Assembly (NCBI GenBank): GCA_965215515.1
Contig: OZ244057.1
Coordinates: 224,001 to 288,000 of the forward strand
Reading direction: 5' to 3'
From: Oligoflexales bacterium
GTDB lineage: Bacteria; Bdellovibrionota_B; Oligoflexia; Oligoflexales; JAPPIL01
Length of the DNA stretch: 64,000 nt
Positions 4,483 to 59,035 of this stretch are shown one piece after another. Position numbers and translations under genes: made by a program. The first letter of the stretch is position 1. Every line of letters begins with the position of its first letter. Under the pieces are notes generated by a model. The model worked only from the letters and a program-made list of their open reading frames with translations. It searched no databases and was not told the DNA's origin.

Positions 4483-5262
4483 TCAGGCCACGAAGCTCAG
4501 CCCATCGTAGGCGAAGTTGATGCCTGGTGGCAGTTCGGCACGGTGCTTGTGGTAATCAACCTCGTGCGACAGGTGGGTGATGAAGCCGCGACGTACGTTG
4601 AGGGCTTGCAGGATGGCTATCGATTCTTGCACCGAGCTGTGGGTTTTATGTGTGCGGAAGCGTACTCCGCTGATGACCATCGTGTCGATTTTGTTTTGCC
4701 AGCGTGCGATCAGTGTGGGGGCGAAGGTTTTGAAATCGGTGGCGTAGGCGAACTTGCCGACACGGAAAGCGTCGGTCATGATTGCCCCGTGTGGCAGACG
4801 CACACTCTCGACCTGCAATCCCGCGACTGTGAAGGGTTTGTCTGGCAGGGGCTTGAGGTCTATCTGGGGCAGTGTGCCGTAGTATCTGCTCTGCGTGTCG
4901 AAGACGTAGCGGAAGCGTTGTTTGAAGTCGGCGATGAAGTCTGTATGCATGTAGCAGGGGATAGAGTTGTTTTTGTCGTGGAAGGCGAACATACGCAGAT
5001 CGTCGAAACCGTGACAGTGGTCAGCGTGAGTGTGGGTGTAGAGCACCGCGGCCAGTGCTTTGACTTCGGCGCGCAGCATCTGCAAGCGGAATTCGGGGGC
5101 AGTGTCGATGACGATATTGCCCCTCCTGTGGGTGAGGAGCAATGAGGAGCGGGTACGGTGGTTTTCGGGGTGCTGGCTGCGGCACACGGAGCAGTCACAA
5201 CCGATCACGGGCACACCCGTGGAAGTGCCGCTGCCGAGGACGGTAACCTTGATGGCTGGCAT
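4483..5262 (-). CDS. MBL-fold metallo-hydrolase (PhnP-like)
   Basis: LGSGTSTGVP.IGC.C.VC, THTHADHCHGFDD, THLSH; start at MPAIKV. Confidence 0.93.
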   Translation of the reverse strand: MPAIKVTVLGSGTSTGVPVIGCDCSVCRSQHPENHRTRSSLLLTHRRGNIVIDTAPEFRLQMLRAEVKALAAVLYTHTHADHCHGFDDLRMFAFHDKNNSIPCYMHTDFIADFKQRFRYVFDTQSRYYGTLPQIDLKPLPDKPFTVAGLQVESVRLPHGAIMTDAFRVGKFAYATDFKTFAPTLIARWQNKIDTMVISGVRFRTHKTHSSVQESIAILQALNVRRGFITHLSHEVDYHKHRAELPPGINFAYDGLSFVA

Positions 5263-5505
5263 CGTGTCTGTCCCTTCCCCCCCTCCGTGCTGCTCCACGA
5301 TAGCAGGAAGGAACGGGAAAGAGAACGATTAAAATCAGTTGATCTTCACCGAGAAACTGCTGATGTTGTAGTTGCTGGTTTTTTCGTTGATGACAAGTAT
5401 TTTACCCCGACAGGTGGTGGAGGCGGGTCCCTTAACTTTTACCAGCATTTTTTTTCTATTTTGTGGATCAGGATAAATTCTTAGGTCACAGTGAGAGTCC
5501 TCCTT
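5237..5505 (+). repeat. Left copy of 269-bp direct repeat flanking rpn-1; holds the MBL gene 5' end and an orphan 3' end of the 6837..7481 gene
   Basis: aggacggtaacc...tcctt matches 6739..7007 with 4 mismatches seen. Confidence 0.97.
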
Positions 5506-5697
5506 ATCGTCGGACTGAAATGCTCCTCTGCACCCTTTAAGCTCTAGACTACGTCCGCACAAAACTTGCGCACATGTAGCGCCCTTCACAGGAAGCATAT
5601 CCATGTAGTTACAGTATGTTGGGAAATTTACCCGCATTTGTTAGCCAAGTACACCAGCCTCGTGTTAAAATATCGAGCACAGCATGACAGGGTGAAC

Positions 5698-6708
5698 ATG
5701 ATTGGGCGACGAAGACGCATAGGGCAGAAAAGACAGCGCCACAAGGCTGCCAAAGCCCGTCACTCCCACCCTCATGACAGCGTCTTCAAGACAATCTTCA
5801 AGCGTCCCGAACACTGCCGTGCCTTGCTACAGGTCTTGCTTTCCCCTAGCTTCTACACCATCTTCAACTGGCCCGCGCTGCAGATCACCGAAAGCACCGC
5901 AGCGGGAAGGAAGGGACAGGAACGCAGAGCTGACATCGTACTGGAAGTGCCGTTGTGGCCTTCCAAAGCCCGTGTCATCATCACTATCATCTTGGAGCAC
6001 AAGAGTTACCGTGACAACGACACCATCCTGCAGATGCTGGGCTATTACAACGAGATCGCCCAACAGACGGGCGGCATCATCCTCCCCATCATCGTCACCT
6101 GTGGCAAGGACAAGAGAGCAGTTATCCCCTCCGATTACCTTAGTTGGGCACTGCAAAGGCAGGGTGCACCCGAAGAGTTGAGGCGGCAACTGAAGAAAAT
6201 TGCCAATTTTGCTTGTCCTTTAGTGAACTTACACGATTTATCCTACCGTCGCATGCGCCGCGGAGGCGAGGTGGTGAGCTTGGCGTTGTTCGGCATACGT
6301 AACTACTGGGATATGGACGAGGAGGTAGTGGTCAAGATTCTCAAGAAGGCACGCCTGTTGCCACAACAGGAGCGAGAGTTTATGCTCAATGTGTTAATGG
6401 ACTACTACGAATGTGCCGATAAGGGGTACGACGTGAGGGGGTTTGCGGAGATTGAACGTAAGCGTTTTCCACACCTGAAGGAGGAAGAGAGACTGATGCC
6501 AGAGATGGAATTTGGCCTTGATAGAGCGAGACAAGAGGGCATACGGCAGGGTATCGAGCAAGGTATGCGCAAGGGCGTAGAGCAAAAGCAGCAGGATGTT
6601 GTCGCGCGGATGTTGGCGAGAGGTATGCCTGACAAGCAGATTTGTGACGTTACACAGATCAGCGCAAAAGAGCTAGCTGACATTAAGCGTGAGCTGCAAA
6701 AAAGCTGA
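5698..6708 (+). CDS. Rpn family recombination-promoting nuclease / putative transposase (rpn-1)
   Basis: PHDSVFK, RRADIV, ILEHKSY, C-terminal QEGIRQGIEQG repeats and HTH-like tail; ATG 5698. Confidence 0.93.
   Translation: MIGRRRRIGQKRQRHKAAKARHSHPHDSVFKTIFKRPEHCRALLQVLLSPSFYTIFNWPALQITESTAAGRKGQERRADIVLEVPLWPSKARVIITIILEHKSYRDNDTILQMLGYYNEIAQQTGGIILPIIVTCGKDKRAVIPSDYLSWALQRQGAPEELRRQLKKIANFACPLVNLHDLSYRRMRRGGEVVSLALFGIRNYWDMDEEVVVKILKKARLLPQQEREFMLNVLMDYYECADKGYDVRGFAEIERKRFPHLKEEERLMPEMEFGLDRARQEGIRQGIEQGMRKGVEQKQQDVVARMLARGMPDKQICDVTQISAKELADIKRELQKS
6496..6708 (+). CDS. Predicted in-frame internal RpnS-type antitoxin (70 aa)
   Basis: AAGGAGG followed by an in-frame ATG at 6496, just before the EG/QG repeats, as described for Rpn genes. 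Confidence 0.55.
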   Translation: MPEMEFGLDRARQEGIRQGIEQGMRKGVEQKQQDVVARMLARGMPDKQICDVTQISAKELADIKRELQKS

Positions 6709-6738
6709 TCGTCAGGTAGCTCACAAATTTGCCCATCA

Positions 6739-7007
6739 AGGACGGTAACCTTGATGGCTGGCATCGTGTCTGTCCCTTCCCCCCCTCCGTGCTGCTCCAC
6801 GATAGCAGGAAGGAACGGGAAAGAGAACGGTTAAAATCAGTTGATCTTCACCGAGAAACTGCTGATGTTGTAGTTGCTGGTTTTTTCGTTGATGACAAGT
6901 ATTTTACCCCGACAGGTGGTGGAGGCGGGGCCCTTAACTTTTACCAGCATTTTTTTTCTATTTTGTGGATCAGGATAAATTCTTAGGTCACAGCGAGAGC
7001 CCTCCTT
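6739..7007 (+). repeat. Right copy of 269-bp direct repeat flanking rpn-1
   Basis: Offset 1502 from 5237..5505; holds the intact 3' end of 6837..7481 and an orphan MBL 5' end. Confidence 0.97.
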
Positions 7008-7481
7008 TTTGAACACATTTATCTGGTGGGTATCTTGGCTCGCGGTGGCAAACGTGGCAGTACCGATATACTTGAAGTCAGTACTTGCCCCCTGCACGCT
7101 AGGATGGCCTTGCCAAGTGATTTTGATACTGTGGTCGATCTCGCCTCTCCCCGTCGCAACGCTTGGTTCAACACACTTGCTGCCAGTCCAGCTGTAGTTT
7201 CTATCCTTTTCTTTGCCGATTTTATCGCAGTCCTCCTGGCTGTTCGCCCCTTCGCAGGCAGTCAACCCATTGACCATACCCAGGTGCTTGACACAGAATG
7301 CCAGATCTGGTGGAACGCATAATTTTTTCGTGCTGTCATAAGCTTGATACTTATCCTTGCAGGATTGCGCATTTACGGCGGTGCTGTCTTTGGGCTTTTT
7401 CTTGATCTCACAGGCGGGTAAAGCCAGTGAAGCACAGGTAAGGAGGTTGGCGACTGCAAAGATGCGGTTTTTTTGTGTCAT
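6837..7481 (-). CDS. Hypothetical Cys-containing lipoprotein (214 aa)
   Basis: ATG 7481 after GAGGA; MTQKNRIFAVANLLTCASLALPAC lipobox; the longer ORF-track version is antisense to serB. Confidence 0.8.
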   Translation of the reverse strand: MTQKNRIFAVANLLTCASLALPACEIKKKPKDSTAVNAQSCKDKYQAYDSTKKLCVPPDLAFCVKHLGMVNGLTACEGANSQEDCDKIGKEKDRNYSWTGSKCVEPSVATGRGEIDHSIKITWQGHPSVQGASTDFKYIGTATFATASQDTHQINVFKKEGSRCDLRIYPDPQNRKKMLVKVKGPASTTCRGKILVINEKTSNYNISSFSVKIN

Positions 7482-12031: not shown

Positions 12032-12165
12032 CCCCCGCACCTACGACGACAGGCGCGCGTTTTTTGTCTGCCAACGAGGCGTTCCCCTCGGGTGTGTCAT
12101 TATCGTAGCACCCCCCACAGCCTCTGTCAATAGAAAAAGTTAGTCAGGCACTACAAAAAAGGAAG

Positions 12166-13081
12166 ACAGACAAAACACCGCAAAATCAGGCCTTCCGTCG
12201 CCCAAAAAATTAAATTAAGCGCCCTACCCACGGAAGTCAGGACATGCTACTCTTTTTTCAATTCGCCCCATCTGACAATCTTTTTATCTTGTGGCTCGAC
12301 TGGCAGGGTTAGAGGGTGCTGCAGCAACAAGGAAATCATGTGTTCGAGTTCAGCCTCACGTGCAATTTTCAATGCACTACTGCCTTGCTTGTTACGCAAA
12401 AAAGGCTTGATATCCTTATGTGCTAGTAATTTTTTCACCACCTTTACTTGTTCATGCATGACTGCATAATGCAAGGCAGTGAAGCCACCATCATCTTGTT
12501 CGTTGACATCGATGGTCGGGTCTTCGTCAAGCATTTGGACAGCGTACTCACTGTGCCTTTTCCTCTCCCCTCTCTATGTCGGTGCGACGATAAACAAAAC
12601 GATCAGTCAGAGGGCGCGGCAAATTCAATTCTCGCAAAGGCTCTATCCATACCCGCAACGTTTCACTAATCAATGCCTCTAGCTCAGCACTGTTTTGTTT
12701 TTCTCCCACCGTACAAGCTTCCCCGTAGCGGTAACTTATCATCCACTGTGGCTGGTGAATTCTCTTCGATAAGGTTTCAACCGCCCGCAGATTGAATGAT
12801 AGTACAAACTTTGGTGCAGCTAGCTCGCTCTTGATGATGCAGCTGCTCAACATGATGACGAGAAAGAAAATTACGCATTGTGTTATCTTACTACGGTTTT
12901 GATAAAGACAGATCACAAGCCTCCCCTCCTACTCAAGGTAGATCACAAGATCATTTATATTTTCTCCTGAAGGGCAAAGATTATTTAATCCGCCTCTGAT
13001 TCTAGCTGCAGTTATAAAATCATGCATGTTACCTTCTTTTTTCCCAGCCTCTGTAGCACAATTAAGTAGTGTTTGTAGAGC
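12166..13081 (-). pseudogene. Inverted, internally deleted copy of 19190..20554 (pilin 3' tail plus metalloprotease-ankyrin gene lacking its catalytic core)
   Basis: ORFs 12929..13138, 12548..12916 and 12247..12534 reproduce the partner proteins; 449-bp deletion between AGGCA microhomologies at 19713 and 20162. Confidence 0.93.
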
Positions 13082-13275
13082 GTCCCGCTTGTTTTTAAGT
13101 ATTGACCATTGTTCATCTGTGAGTACAATGCCTCTCATGGGTAAACCTCTGGAAATTATTGTTGTATCTTTCCATATGATGCAGGTTTGCCCTACTAATT
13201 ACAAGTGGTTACCACACACAAAAATCATTAAACGAAACGGCGACACGCCCTAATACTTGCTGTTATCATCACTAG

Positions 13276-19100: not shown

Positions 19101-19342
19101 TGACTGGACAACATGAATGGAAAAAAGAATGTCTTGGGGATGACTATCCCACTCTCGTTCAGCATGGCGATGATAGCGCCATGCAGGAAGCTCTACAAAC
19201 ACTACTTAATTGTGCTACAGAGGCTGAGAAAAAAGAAGGTAACATGCATGGTTTTATAACTGCAGCTAGAATCAGAGGCGGATTAAATAATCTTTGCCCT
19301 TCAGGAGAAAATATAAATGATCTTGTGATCTACCTTGAGTAG
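16190..19342 (+). CDS. Giant type IV pilin-like protein with a Pro linker and Cys-rich repeat region
   Basis: RTRAG|LSLVELMVAVAVIGIL prepilin motif, QARRGEAKSNL, poly-Pro, about 90 Cys by manual count. Confidence 0.9.
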   Translation: MVRTRAGLSLVELMVAVAVIGILVALALPRYHAFLAQARRGEAKSNLAHLASLQAVYKIEHFRYYSGSALLAPDGGIGYKNEDGTRGDCGDYADDRDLGLNNHLGFRPQACGQLRYFYQLRPGNVAVAFAYADAEGRYIYPDCHGGGREECDYTRGDAVRMALRDAKPTVCRNITKYCPAGMGTPPPPPPPTPTPPPPPPCDPTTQCCDGNTEVANTFSLTCNGWWGTFNDSAPNKGCCRRCGCTPWQPAVSDSRTDPNACEGESRYEYEPQTRTCSGPPPCPAATRTVQRTVRGTKDCTGCVCPDWPDLPARTDPNSCEDRFEDETQRRDCTGTPPPGITCSETRTAQRKVKGGIMPTPCSGLLQWVGDPYCECQCLYATAAEADITCPSATPTWNSTTCQCECPLTATDCPHGVDSANCTCSPKDEGQECRQRNMSNYCCSEEGTGGVIPSGDNCDDAYTISWNTDLDPDACDCSAIETEEPEGCKEDNHNTHYCCSNGGVLQDDPCINPTSDYTVIWTAPTLWTVGGCVCAKKSIEECDENTNSNYCCTNARVHSVDIRDDIRNDGDKRCMGGYTVNWNGNSVPPSCECATGVVTLPPESEGCAENTNGNYCCDASDNMSSHADGGCGDDSRKVYWNSASGECECSEEPSDAAATLPEKIPTPEPEVCDNQCEKTKCEEESQAQWFDIDNSDSKACTCECNDSSYKWVYPHSRGYTLTSTANNVLNSITTALGIAPLSCNQEGACVCDDSEACCDGDAIRSSCTDEPDNNNYYVLQKYPHCCTDCECTLTYRDLCKGVSMQLTPESVICRNSIPECMTKGYNLAATSKWVDGSKGTTKQEACKDTGGGWTSSESCDCGDGKTFEYKESDCEGGCVAMAPCPAPNKMLGGHCCHSSIEKSDYDNCTQAMGEWRNDCTCICHGEKEFVKDSKDSVWKCVYQHTIYQNCFTQATIDGNQNIVYLPTDPKHLTGQHEWKKECLGDDYPTLVQHGDDSAMQEALQTLLNCATEAEKKEGNMHGFITAARIRGGLNNLCPSGENINDLVIYLE

Positions 19343-20554
19343 GAGGGGAGGCTTGTGATCTGTCTTTATCAAAACCGTAGTAAGATAACACAATGCGTAA
19401 TTTTCTTTCTCGTCATCATGTTGAGCAGCTGCATCATCAAGAGCGAGCTAGCTGCACCAAAGTTTGTACTATCATTCAATCTGCGGGCGGTTGAAACCTT
19501 ATCGAAGAGAATTCACCAGCCACAGTGGATGATAAGTTACCGCTACGGGGAAGCTTGTACGGTGGGAGAAAAACAAAACAGTGCTGAGCTAGAGGCATTG
19601 ATTAGTGAAACGTTGCGGGTATGGATAGAGCCTTTGCGAGAATTGAATTTACCGCGTCCTCTGACTGATCGTTTTGTTTATCGTCGCACCAACGTAGAGA
19701 GAGGGGAAGAAGAGGCAAAAGATCACGGCAATGATGATTTCTATGTACTATTTACCTGCGAAGAAGGTAGATCGTTCGCGAAATTGGGACACTTCTCAGA
19801 GCCTTATATTGGTATACAAGGAGGCACAGCGTTAACCCGCCGACTTAAATATGCTCTTACCCATGAAATCGGTCATGCCTTCGGTCTCGGTGATGCTTAT
19901 ATAATAGGATGGAACAAAGATATGGGTGGTCTTGAGGCTACTGCAGGTAAGCAGCCACCGTCGATAATGTCGGGTCACTTCTTCAACAGCCCCCCGCAGC
20001 CTTATCTCAGCAAAGATGACAGACGCGGCATAGTGTGGATCTACAAGCACATTCACGAGGGCACAAATACCAAAGACTGTTTCTTCCCCGACTATGTGTA
20101 TGAAGAATCGCCTCACCCTGGCTGCCGTCCTAAAAACATATTGATCTTTGAGATCAAACAAAGGCACAGTGAGTACGCTGTCCAAATGCTTGACGAAGAC
20201 CCAACCATCGATATCAACGAACAAGATGATGGTGGCTTCACTGCCTTGCATTATGCAGTCATGCATGAACAAGTAAAGGTGGTGAAAAAATTACTAGCAC
20301 ATAAGGATATCAAGCCTTTTTTGCGTAACAAGCAAGGCAGTAGTGCATTGAAAATTGCACGTGAAGCTGAGCTCGAACACATGATCGCCTTGTTGCTGCA
20401 GCACCCTCTGACCTTGCCAGTCGAGCCACAAAGTAAAAAGATTGTCAGATGGGGCGAATTGAAAAAAGAGTAGCATGTCCTGAGTTGCGTGGGTAGGGCG
20501 CTTAATTTAATTTTTTGAGCGACAGAAGGCCTGATTTTGCGGTGTTTTGTCTGT
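19190..20554 (+). repeat. Intact arm of the inverted duplication paired with 12166..13081
   Basis: Homology from gctctacaaac to gtgttttgtctgt. Confidence 0.93.
19355..20473 (+). CDS. Lipoprotein with metzincin-like Zn protease domain and ankyrin repeats
   Basis: LSSC lipobox, HEIGHAFGLGD, SIMS Met-turn, GFTALHYAV and GSSALKIA ankyrin motifs; strong RBS. Confidence 0.9.
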   Translation: MICLYQNRSKITQCVIFFLVIMLSSCIIKSELAAPKFVLSFNLRAVETLSKRIHQPQWMISYRYGEACTVGEKQNSAELEALISETLRVWIEPLRELNLPRPLTDRFVYRRTNVERGEEEAKDHGNDDFYVLFTCEEGRSFAKLGHFSEPYIGIQGGTALTRRLKYALTHEIGHAFGLGDAYIIGWNKDMGGLEATAGKQPPSIMSGHFFNSPPQPYLSKDDRRGIVWIYKHIHEGTNTKDCFFPDYVYEESPHPGCRPKNILIFEIKQRHSEYAVQMLDEDPTIDINEQDDGGFTALHYAVMHEQVKVVKKLLAHKDIKPFLRNKQGSSALKIAREAELEHMIALLLQHPLTLPVEPQSKKIVRWGELKKE

Positions 20555-20560
20555 TGTCCG

Positions 20561-49101: not shown

Positions 49102-49935
49102 TTAGCGAAAGTCTTGCAACTCAGCCACCTGTCTAGGTGTGCTTTTGTCGCTCGAGAGACGGGGAATGGTAAGCAGTCTGTGCTGCTGTGCGTATTTGGA
49201 CGCACGGCGTGACCGTGCACCCGCGGTGGCGGTCTTCGCCTCTGTAAGGTAGGAGAAACCACCGTGCACAGGTTTACTGCGCAGTGCGTGTCGTAGTCCT
49301 TGAGCGGCGAACTTGAGCTGGTGGAAGTTTTCGAGTAGCGTGATGAGACGGTCGATGTCTCCTCGTTTCAGGGTAAGTTTAGTTTCGATAACGAAGACAC
49401 GTTTGGTGGTAATAACGATGGCATCGATTTCAAAATCTTTATTTCTGCCAGGTTTTTCTGCATAACTGCCCTCAACGTTACGCACAATTTTTTTTACCTG
49501 CTCTCCTTCGTAGAGGTCGGGAATAATTTTGTACAGGGCTTGCACGGTTTGGGTTTCAAACACAAAACCGTTGATGTTGGCCTGTTTGCCGCGCACCACG
49601 TTATAGTAGTCGCGGAATTCTTCGTATTCCTGGCGCAGTGTCGTCAGTTCTTCGTGCAGACTGTGCTTCGTCGAGGGGATGGACTGGTGTTTCTTGCTCT
49701 GGCGGGAGGCGACGATATCTGCACACAGTTTGCGCATCTTCGCAATCAGCAGGCAACCAGCCAGCGATGCCCCACTGATGAGTAGTGCGCTTTGTTTGAC
49801 AAGCTTTTTGCCGCGGTCGGGTTGTTCTTCTGCGGCGAATTCTTGCACATCGTGCAGCTGTGCGGCAGGATCAGGTAAACCACAACCGTTGGCCAGCAAT
49901 GCCGTTGCCAGCATGCAAGAACAGATAAGTTTCAC
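49102..49935 (-). CDS. Putative lipoprotein with a C-terminal PD-(D/E)XK nuclease-like domain
   Basis: LLANGC; GFVFE...FEIDAIV...VFVIETK. Confidence 0.65.
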   Translation of the reverse strand: MKLICSCMLATALLANGCGLPDPAAQLHDVQEFAAEEQPDRGKKLVKQSALLISGASLAGCLLIAKMRKLCADIVASRQSKKHQSIPSTKHSLHEELTTLRQEYEEFRDYYNVVRGKQANINGFVFETQTVQALYKIIPDLYEGEQVKKIVRNVEGSYAEKPGRNKDFEIDAIVITTKRVFVIETKLTLKRGDIDRLITLLENFHQLKFAAQGLRHALRSKPVHGGFSYLTEAKTATAGARSRRASKYAQQHRLLTIPRLSSDKSTPRQVAELQDFR

Positions 49936-55787: not shown

Positions 55788-55857
55788 TTGGCTGTTGCCG
55801 CACGCTTGGATTGTGCCCAGCAGCCAAGAGGTGGCCAGCCCACGATTAGGCCGATAA
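55788..55857 (+). repeat. Left copy of ~70-bp diverged direct repeat flanking rpn-3
   Basis: 56/70 ungapped identity to 56964..57033 by manual alignment. Confidence 0.85.
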
Positions 55858-56963: not shown

Positions 56964-57033
56964 TTGGCTGTTGCTGCATGCTGGAGATGTGCCCAACAGT
57001 CAAGAGTTGGCTAGCCCTCGGCTAAGCCGATAA
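56964..57033 (+). repeat. Right copy of ~70-bp repeat; includes the stop of the recombinase fragment
   Basis: ttggctgttgc...gccgataa, offset 1176. Confidence 0.85.
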
Positions 57034-57346
57034 CGCTATCCTCCCCTTCCGCCTTGCCACATAAACCCCTTCGCGTTTCAGTATTTTTATAATCGTGTTG
57101 CCGTGCCAACTTTTACCCTGCTGCTTGGTGGGTAGCTTCATCGTGTTCAAGAATCGGACAATGGCGTTCGTACTGATGCCCTTGCCATACATTTGCTTGA
57201 TGGTGGCGATGGTGCGCAATTCGGCCTTGTGGTCTATGGTCTTGCCGCTGACCCGACGCTTGCCATAGGCTAGTCTAGAGCCGTGGCGTTCTGATCGCTT
57301 GCGCAAGGGGATGTTATGTTTCAGCAACAGGTCTCTGAGGATAAAT
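57022..57346 (-). pseudogene. 5'-truncated recombinase-domain gene (large serine recombinase DNA-binding type)
   Basis: AYG..IKQMY..AIVRFLN..PTKQQGKSW..IIKILKR; the ORF-track N-terminus derives from the adjacent repeat. Confidence 0.7.
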
Positions 57347-57442
57347 GCACCCTCAAAGCCTGGTGATCCCTGCCTGGCAGTTTTGAAAAGCACTACCGTG
57401 CCGCACTGAAAATCATCGTTACCAGCACCTGCGAACGGCGGA
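57347..57442 (+). repeat. Left copy of ~95-bp direct repeat flanking the R-M pair
   Basis: Matches 58942..59035 with one substitution and a 2-nt indel. Confidence 0.95.
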
Positions 57443-58894: not shown

Positions 58895-58941
58895 AAATTA
58901 TAGGCCTATTGCTGCTGAACGATTGTTGTCCTTGGGTGAAG

Positions 58942-59035
58942 GCACTCTCAAAGCCTGGTGATCCCTGCCTGGCAGTTTTGAAGCACTACCGTGCCGCACT
59001 GAAAATCATCGTTACCAGCACCTGCGAACGGCGGA
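58942..59035 (+). repeat. Right copy of ~95-bp direct repeat; contains the 3' end of 58986..59909
   Basis: gcactctcaaagcc...gaacggcgga. Confidence 0.95.

What the first reader, a model, noticed from the sequence alone, without database searches (positions are those of the whole stretch)
5237..7007. Solo Rpn nuclease gene inserted with a 269-bp target duplication
Seen: a 1233-bp cassette (5506-6738) carrying only rpn-1 lies between 269-bp direct repeats with 4 mismatches. The repeat spans the 3' end of one host gene, the intergenic DNA and the 5' end of the next, so both neighbours stay intact and each leaves an orphan fragment. There are no terminal inverted repeats, hairpins or integrase. 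Established: Rpn/YhgA-like proteins are nicking PD-(D/E)XK nucleases labelled putative transposases without defined element ends, and long target duplications were reported for Helicobacter R-M insertions. Inference: this is a footprint of Rpn mobility by widely staggered nicks plus fill-in, or by integration of a circle carrying flank DNA.
Basis: partly seen in the sequence, partly recalled or inferred. Interest (0 to 1): 0.85.

Follow-up and report, generated by a model that had tools for sequence, protein, structure and literature searches.

The report
Rpn gene in IS1634-type target duplication
A DNA-cutting rpn gene was inserted between two copies of 269 bases of host DNA, and the duplication was likely made not by Rpn but by an IS1634-family jumping gene that makes such long duplications in this genus and has left a 130-base scrap at the junction.

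Summary
The 269-bp repeat is real, occurs only twice in the genome, and is an insertion scar: a same-genus genome has the empty site with one copy. The cassette is not rpn alone. Its first 130 bp are the right end of an IS1634-family insertion sequence, a family known for long variable target duplications. In the sister genome 4 of 6 intact IS1634 copies sit in perfect repeats of about 180-796 bp. In this genome 16 of 54 IS1634 ends abut uniquely duplicated host DNA (20 of 1000 random points). Repeats flank 7 of 17 rpn loci here against 7 of 1391 other genes, but only 2 of 49 rpn zones in the sister genome and 1-2 of 71 rpn loci elsewhere, so Rpn does not normally move this way. Best reading (0.5): an IS1634-bounded unit carried rpn in and made the duplication; deletions then removed most of the IS; the toxin-antitoxin gene likely keeps the scar from collapsing. 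Against it: no IS terminus survives at either junction, the scrap looks older than the repeat, and some repeat-flanked cassettes have no IS trace. An Rpn-dependent route is not excluded (about 0.15).

The parts
4483..5262 (-). MBL-fold hydrolase gene, 259 aa, intact; its first 26 nt lie in repeat copy 1
   Evidence: PF12706; start at 5262 matches the starts in G001 and G002
5237..5505 (+). target duplication, copy 1 (269 bp; begins with A, ends with T)
5335..5505 (-). orphan 3' end (56 codons + stop) of the lipoprotein-like gene; carries three derived changes
5506..5635 (+). IS1634-family right-end scrap: element positions 1760-1886 of 1896 (transposase 3' end and subterminal region), terminal ~10 bases missing
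   Evidence: the full element's transposase scores 335 bits on NF033559
5642..5671 (+). sigma-70-like promoter match ahead of rpn (predicted only)
   Evidence: 9 of 12 with TG; 3 sites found vs 1.2 +/- 1.0 in shuffles
5698..6708 (+). rpn (YhgA-like) gene, 336 aa, motifs HD...RADIV...EHK...Q intact; six paralogs in the genome differ by 4-11 of the first 780 nt
6496..6708 (+). predicted internal antitoxin frame (RpnS-like, 70 aa): AAGGAGG then ATG, ahead of a 4-residue repeat tract whose length differs among the seven paralogs in steps of four
   Evidence: architecture as in 10.1101/2023.05.02.539157; translation not tested
6739..7007 (+). target duplication, copy 2; its first 26 nt are the orphan 5' end of the MBL gene; one derived change at 6830
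6837..7481 (-). lipoprotein-like gene of no Pfam family, 214 aa, intact; its 3' end lies in copy 2

Best explanation
The 269-bp repeat is a target duplication around an inserted rpn gene, likely made by the IS1634-family transposase, with rpn as a likely passenger. Shown: insertion into a single-copy site; an IS1634 right-end scrap at the left junction; an IS1634 left end 26 bp past the point where this cassette stops in three sister rpn copies; long variable duplications at IS1634 ends in this genome and genus. Inferred: (1) the donor was IS-rpn-IS (a composite unit, or an rpn+IS circle recombining into an IS copy already flanked by its duplication); (2) the transposase joined the two outer ends to target positions about 270 bp or more apart and the gap was filled in; (3) later deletions removed the outer IS parts; any deletion that reaches or crosses the inner edge of a repeat leaves the same layout, so no precision is needed; (4) recombination between the repeats would delete the cassette, but loss of an RpnL/RpnS toxin-antitoxin gene would be costly, so scars with nuclease or toxin cargo would survive preferentially.
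For: IS1634 identity. G001: 4 of 6 identical intact copies have perfect abutting repeats of 796, 332, 283 and about 180 bp. G000: 16 of 54 terminal-repeat hits have a uniquely duplicated outside flank of 31-435 bp (one pair counted twice) vs 20 of 1000 random points (Fisher p 8e-13); a 146-bp mini-element sits in a local repeat of 276 + 90 bp touching both ends. These pairs are 90-100% identical, bracketing the 98.5% here. Erosion is common: of 14 partner copies printed, 1 keeps an intact end where the second IS end should be, 1 a truncated right end, 8 show no IS sequence, 4 are same-side copies, short remnants or the local mini-element. 4 of 9 low-copy repeat-flanked cassettes have IS1634 end sequence within about 30 bp of an inner edge, against about 1% expected (p 1e-6; 3 of 8, p 5e-5, if the two kin rpn cases are merged; set chosen after seeing the data). 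The second rpn insertion with empty sites in both relatives (309-bp repeat, protein about 23-27% identical) has a 10-of-11 terminal-repeat match exactly at the repeat edge. T precedes the terminus at 40 of 54 ends; this repeat ends in T and starts with A (weak). All four mismatches have the derived base in the orphan half, so a resident sequence was duplicated and then drifted (one outgroup at about 77% identity). IS1549/IS1634 repeats of 8-514 bp: PMC2266710, passages. IS1634 composite transposon Tn6097: PMC3281130, passages.
Against: No IS terminus survives at either junction, and two separate deletions must be assumed. The scrap differs by 9 substitutions from four IS copies that differ by 0-4 among themselves, so it looks older than the 1.5%-diverged repeat or is another subfamily; it may just have ridden along with rpn. 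5 of the 9 cassettes (73- and 70-bp rpn, 99-bp R-M, 92-bp AbiEii, 55-bp nuclease pair) show no IS trace. A perfect 45-bp repeat flanks an rpn in G003 with no IS end found, and a 58-bp one flanks a truncated rpn in G125, where no IS1634 transposase was found. G001 has intact IS1634 yet only 2 of 49 rpn zones have a low-copy repeat. 2 of 6 G001 IS copies and 5 of 6 IS1634 copies in G124 have no long repeat. Tn6097 made only 6-bp repeats. No intact IS-rpn-IS unit was found. Cost of losing rpn is untested.
Confidence: 0.5

Rival explanations
1. Generic 'insertion with long target duplication' as described for restriction-modification genes: host repair of a chromosome break captures or copies a piece with arbitrary ends (here an old IS scrap plus rpn) and re-copies part of the flank. 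A nuclease, possibly Rpn, may supply the break, but no dedicated element is involved.
For: Arbitrary cassette ends; IS-free repeat-flanked cassettes with R-M, AbiEii and nuclease cargo in this genome; IS-free rpn cases in G003 and G125; scrap older than the repeat. Furuta et al. favour a double-strand-break cause (PMC2853133, Discussion).
Against: Does not predict IS1634 ends at 4 of 9 repeat edges, nor why the habit is common in this IS1634-scarred genome and rare at 71 rpn loci elsewhere. Junction microhomology is 0 bp (left) and 2 bp (right), no sign of template switching.
Confidence: 0.27
2. Circle integration: a circle holding rpn and a 269-bp host piece (joined by chance or brought from a related strain) recombined into the chromosome by single crossover.
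For: Repeat is long enough for homologous recombination; tandem arrays of the same rpn unit exist (2 and 3 copies), which can loop out circles.
Against: Needs a prior illegitimate joining of this unique host piece to rpn; mismatches fit drift after duplication, not a foreign donor allele; it moves the question to how the circle formed.
Confidence: 0.1
3. Rpn acts as the element's own mobilising enzyme: widely staggered nicks in the target, joining of the cassette and fill-in.
For: 7 of 17 rpn loci vs 7 of 1391 other ORFs are repeat-flanked; two unrelated rpn subfamilies each have a proven empty site; six near-identical paralogs show recent spread; catalytic residues intact.
Against: G001 has 55 full rpn genes, 40 with a twin of 95% or more elsewhere, yet 2 of 49 zones have a low-copy repeat (multi-copy DNA was masked, so repeats made of it are missed); 1-2 of 71 loci outside the family; no shared ends among the seven paralogous cassettes; one insertion of the same rpn unit with adjacent flanks in both relatives has no repeat; RpnA is a weak non-specific nuclease; Zhong et al. 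found no sign of autonomous transposition.
Confidence: 0.08
4. Assembly artefact.
For: No read or contig laid spans both copies; the left junction is not shown by any listed contig.
Against: Four mismatches that polarise as orphan-side drift; short-read graphs branch at the repeat start and hold both alleles, one of them in a second study; same pattern at other loci with empty sites.
Confidence: 0.03

Closest known systems
IS1634 (Mycoplasma mycoides) and IS1549 (Mycobacterium smegmatis), IS1634 family; seen only as cited in PMC2266710 (passages); the two original papers were not held
   Same: Long, variable direct repeats (8-514 bp in the review; about 180-796 bp in G001, 269 bp here); same transposase family present and its end sequence at the junction.
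   Different: Here no intact IS lies between the repeats; the surviving cargo is an rpn gene and both outer termini are gone.
Insertion with long target duplication of restriction-modification genes (Furuta et al. 2010, PMC2853133, passages and Discussion; Nobusato et al. 2000 only as cited there)
   Same: Nuclease gene between unique repeats longer than 30 bp, empty site in a relative, neighbours intact, no integrase.
   Different: Cargo is Rpn, not an R and M pair; that class is defined by absence of other mobile elements, whereas an IS1634 end lies at this junction.
RpnL/RpnS toxin-antitoxin, anti-phage nucleases (Zhong et al. 2023, 10.1101/2023.05.02.539157, passages and Discussion; Kingston et al. 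2017, PMC5350276, passages)
   Same: PF04754 domain, catalytic motif, internal start before a variable 4-residue repeat, tandem arrays, variable ends.
   Different: [quoted passage not shown] Their supplement (Fig. S1B) was not seen.
Tn6097, composite transposon bounded by two ISPfe2 (IS1634 family) (PMC3281130, passages)
   Same: Shows that IS1634-family elements can carry cargo as a composite unit.
   Different: Intact, 14-kb core, 6-bp duplications.

Membership tests
Rpn / YhgA-like (PF04754) | profile match | tested here: met
   PF04754 47.2 bits, cut-off 21; TIGR01784 40.9 bits is under its 52.1 cut-off, so a divergent member
Rpn / YhgA-like (PF04754) | PD-(D/E)XK-type residues (D, ExK, downstream Q) | tested here: met
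   D79, E100-H-K102, Q112 invariant in 4 of 4 aligned Rpn proteins of this genome; their catalytic role is recalled
RpnL/RpnS toxin-antitoxin | internal start 8-20 residues before a variable 4-residue repeat | tested here: met
   AAGGAGG + ATG at 6496 in 7 of 7 paralogs; lengths 336-388 aa in steps of four
RpnL/RpnS toxin-antitoxin | toxicity neutralised by the small protein; phage defence | not testable with these tools
   needs expression
IS1634 family (the scrap's parent element) | IS1634 transposase, 1.5-2.0 kb, short terminal inverted repeats | tested here: met
   551-aa ORF, NF033559 335 bits (cut-off 100); 1896 bp; termini CCTGAGTTCCG
IS1634 family (long-repeat members) | long variable target duplications abutting the termini | tested here: met
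   4 of 6 in G001 (a related element, 36% identical transposase); local mini-element and 16 of 54 ends in G000
IS1634 composite transposon (the cassette itself) | intact IS termini at both outer junctions | tested here: not met
   no terminus at 5506 or 6738; at most an eroded remnant
IS1634 composite transposon (the cassette itself) | IS sequence on both sides of the cargo in the donor | tested here: inconclusive
   right-end scrap upstream here; left end 26 bp past the equivalent point in three sister copies; never both intact at one locus
Insertion with long target duplication (Furuta 2010) | unique repeat over 30 bp, insert under 20 kb, empty site in a relative | tested here: met
Insertion with long target duplication (Furuta 2010) | R and M genes in the insert, no other mobile element | tested here: not met
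   single rpn gene plus IS1634 scrap
autonomous Rpn transposon (proposed) | shared ends and a duplication at most copies | tested here: not met
   ends differ among 7 paralogous units; repeats at 2 of 49 zones in G001 and 1-2 of 71 loci elsewhere

The most novel reading that the evidence does not exclude
Rpn nuclease activity is itself needed for these insertions: it cuts donor and target without sequence preference and repair leaves a long target duplication, so rpn genes are selfish elements with variable ends that also move neighbouring DNA (IS scraps, R-M, AbiE, NYN genes) in trans. This would overturn the published view that rpn genes are not self-mobile. A second bold reading, somewhat likelier (about 0.3): eroded IS1634-type insertions are a hidden cause of the unexplained long target duplications around defence genes in other bacteria.
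Probability: 0.15. Interest if true: 0.8.

Novelty: new variant of a known kind. Interest (0 to 1): 0.45.

Why it matters
How rpn genes reach tens of copies per genome is open: the main study found no target duplications and doubted self-mobility. This genome gives two rpn insertions with long duplications and proven empty sites, and a concrete alternative to self-mobility: carriage by an IS family whose long duplications outlast the IS itself. If right, 'gene between long repeats with no mobile element' can be an eroded IS1634 scar kept by an addictive cargo, which offers a testable cause for part of the unexplained restriction-modification cases. An intact transposase gene and a natural rpn cassette from one genome allow a direct two-factor test. 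My searches of the held library listed no paper linking rpn genes to long duplications or to IS1634; subscription papers and supplements were not seen.

Tried and rejected
Junction microhomology: first noted as 3 bp each, corrected to 0 and 2 bp; not used. Empty-site tests for the 149-, 73-, 71- and 27-bp cases and one rpn without repeat: flanks map to separate places in G001/G002 or were not found, so no verdict; the 70- and 99-bp cases lie in a region with no shared gene order. Using G000 as the empty site for 55 rpn loci of relatives: 3 of 55 had adjacent flanks, none with a duplication. The 122- and 149-bp repeats lie in a multi-copy pilin-cassette leader (17 and 11 copies) and were not counted as target duplications. 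G002 has another gene (552 aa) in the same interval, so it is not a clean empty site. Sequencing runs: no RNA holder listed; only short-read contigs; no listed contig covers 5267-5505 in the deep runs, which proves nothing; contig depths at junctions were above the flanks in one run and below in another and were not used. Metagenome scan with the Rpn protein gave 6 distant loci, no near strain. Order and phylum scans: PF04754 in 6 of 95 and 6 of 104 genomes. Earlier scan notes held nothing on Rpn with long repeats. No structure or complex prediction was run.

Full report
Setting. The window is positions 224001-288000 of a single-contig 2.18-Mb genome (G000). Record titles of its two same-genus relatives name uncultured Oligoflexales.

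The observation. A 269-bp direct repeat lies at 5237-5505 and 6739-7007 with four mismatches, and has no third copy in the genome. Between the copies are 1233 bp with one intact rpn gene (5698-6708, PF04754). The repeat covers the 3' end of a lipoprotein-like gene, the spacer and the first 26 nt of an MBL-fold gene. G001 has these two genes side by side with one copy of the segment: the empty site. G002 keeps the gene order but has another gene in the interval. With G001 as outgroup, all four mismatches have the derived base in the orphaned half of their copy, as expected if a resident sequence was duplicated and then drifted. Short-read contigs branch at the repeat start, cross the right junction with a 58-bp contig, and hold both alleles at 5328/6830; none spans both copies.

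A genome-wide pattern. I defined 17 rpn loci from tblastn (arrays merged; seven short fragments left out). Seven have a flanking repeat scoring 20 or more within 600 bp, against 7 of 1391 other ORFs of 200 aa or more (p 3e-11). Two of the seven lie in a multi-copy leader; five are low-copy: 269, 309, 73, 70 and 27 bp. The 309-bp case, with a distant Rpn, has empty sites in both G001 and G002. The non-rpn hits include a methylase cassette, an AbiEii cassette and paralogue repeats; an NYN cassette and a pair of nuclease-like genes (label recalled from their motifs) also sit in repeats.

The first 130 bp of the cassette match a dispersed element. Its one full copy is 1896 bp, has termini CCTGAGTTCCG and a 551-aa IS1634-family transposase. 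The scrap is element positions 1760-1886, without the last ~10 bases. In three sister rpn copies an IS left end follows 26 bp past the point where this cassette stops, so this rpn unit has sat between IS1634 ends. A review states that IS1549 and IS1634 make repeats of 8-514 bp, with no mechanism known (PMC2266710, passages).

IS1634 makes such repeats here. G001 has six identical intact copies of a related element; four are flanked by perfect abutting repeats of 796, 332, 283 and about 180 bp, two by none. In G000, 16 of 54 terminal-repeat hits have a uniquely duplicated outside flank (31-435 bp, 90-100% identical; one pair counted twice) against 20 of 1000 random points. A 146-bp mini-element has a local repeat touching both ends. 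Of 14 partner copies printed, one keeps an intact IS end, one a truncated end and eight show no IS sequence, so IS ends are usually lost; that these scattered pairs are target duplications is inferred. Four of nine low-copy repeat-flanked cassettes have IS1634 end sequence at or within about 30 bp of an inner edge, where about 1% is expected (six further repeat pairs printed were left out as multi-copy, paralogous or rRNA; the set was chosen after seeing the data).

Rpn elsewhere does not do this. G001 has 55 full-length rpn genes in the 45 loci fetched, 40 with a twin of 95% or more at another locus, yet only 2 of 49 scored zones have a low-copy repeat (30 and 40 bp; multi-copy DNA masked). 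Outside the family, 71 loci were scored: 16 in G125, 15 in G124, 23 in G139, 2 in G164 and 15 others (8 plasmids picked from 30 listed, 4 metagenome contigs, 3 from two genomes of the order). One has a clear unique repeat (58 bp, G125), one an unchecked 133-bp repeat (Leptospira plasmid); the other high scores were multi-copy, tandem or old repeats. This agrees with Zhong et al., who report no target duplications and no autonomous transposition (passages). In G002 and G003, 2 of 11 loci have low-copy repeats (60 and 45 bp); the first has a 19-bp match to an IS1634 locus inside the cassette, the second none.

Mechanism. Most likely an IS1634-bounded unit carrying rpn inserted and made the duplication; deletions then removed the outer IS parts. 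A deletion that reaches or crosses a repeat's inner edge leaves the same layout, so exact trimming is not required. The gene has the layout of an RpnL/RpnS pair (internal Shine-Dalgarno and ATG at 6496, four-residue repeat varying among seven paralogs), so its loss by recombination between the repeats is predicted to be costly; that would explain why surviving scars hold nucleases and toxins. These steps are inferred.

Against this reading. No terminus survives; the scrap carries 9 substitutions against copies that differ by 0-4, so it seems older than the repeat; five of nine cassettes have no IS trace; IS-free cases exist in G003 and G125; G001 has active IS1634 but few repeat-flanked rpn genes; the one described IS1634 composite made 6-bp repeats (PMC3281130, passages). 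A generic break-repair route, as proposed for restriction-modification genes (PMC2853133, passages and Discussion), therefore keeps 0.27, circle integration 0.10, Rpn as its own transposase 0.08, artefact 0.03.

Papers seen. PMC2853133: passages and Discussion. 10.1101/2023.05.02.539157: passages and Discussion, no supplement. PMC5350276, PMC2266710, PMC3281130: passages. Vilei 1999, Plikaytis 1998, Nobusato 2000: only as cited. Earlier scan notes were used as leads: the A...T boundary idea was checked (T before 40 of 54 termini in G000; only 2 of 4 G001 repeats start with A and 3 of 4 end with T).

Verdict. [quoted passage not shown] New variant of a known kind; interest 0.45.

Noticed in passing
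window 57344-57442 / 58939-59035: 99-bp direct repeat (96%) around a DNA methylase (PF01555) and a small possible endonuclease (weak BsaWI hit): an R-M-like insertion with long duplication; no IS1634 trace; homologues in G001/G002 lack the repeat.
   Followed up: partly
window 55788-55857 / 56964-57033: Older 70-bp repeat (80%) around another rpn gene.
   Followed up: partly
window 12161-13091 / 19180-20559: Large inverted duplication around a second rpn gene, an IS200-like tnpA and a pilin cassette; both arms end at IS1634 left ends (12241 and 20479) sharing a 319-bp flank.
   Followed up: partly
G000 602980-604574 (L146) and 321616-322745 (L071): AbiEii toxin cassette in a 92-bp repeat and NYN-domain cassette in a 71-bp repeat, the latter starting with the last 26 bp of an IS1634 end.
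   Followed up: partly
G001, loci L011-L055: 63 PF04754 matches; most rpn genes are embedded in 0.5-3 kb zones of a genus-wide short repeat, which may spread them by recombination; the repeat is also common away from rpn (0-44% of 16 control loci), so the link is untested.
   Followed up: partly
L067 5140-6798 (G002): A different 552-aa gene fills the same interval between the lipoprotein and MBL genes, with no duplication seen: a reused landing interval.
   Followed up: no
G000 1679034-1681279: Two rpn genes lie between 94-bp inverted repeats (99%) of another multi-copy end: a possible rpn-carrying non-autonomous element.
   Followed up: no
G000 847769-847837: Diverged 70-bp copy of a 16S rRNA segment 2.9 kb from the 16S gene (16S identity recalled from the sequence).
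   Followed up: no
window 49102-49935: ORF with a signal-peptide-like start and a nuclease-related (NERD) domain.
   Followed up: no
L200 1427-2425 (G125): 5'-truncated rpn in a unique 58-bp repeat spanning the ends of two convergent genes, in a genome with no IS1634 transposase match.
   Followed up: partly
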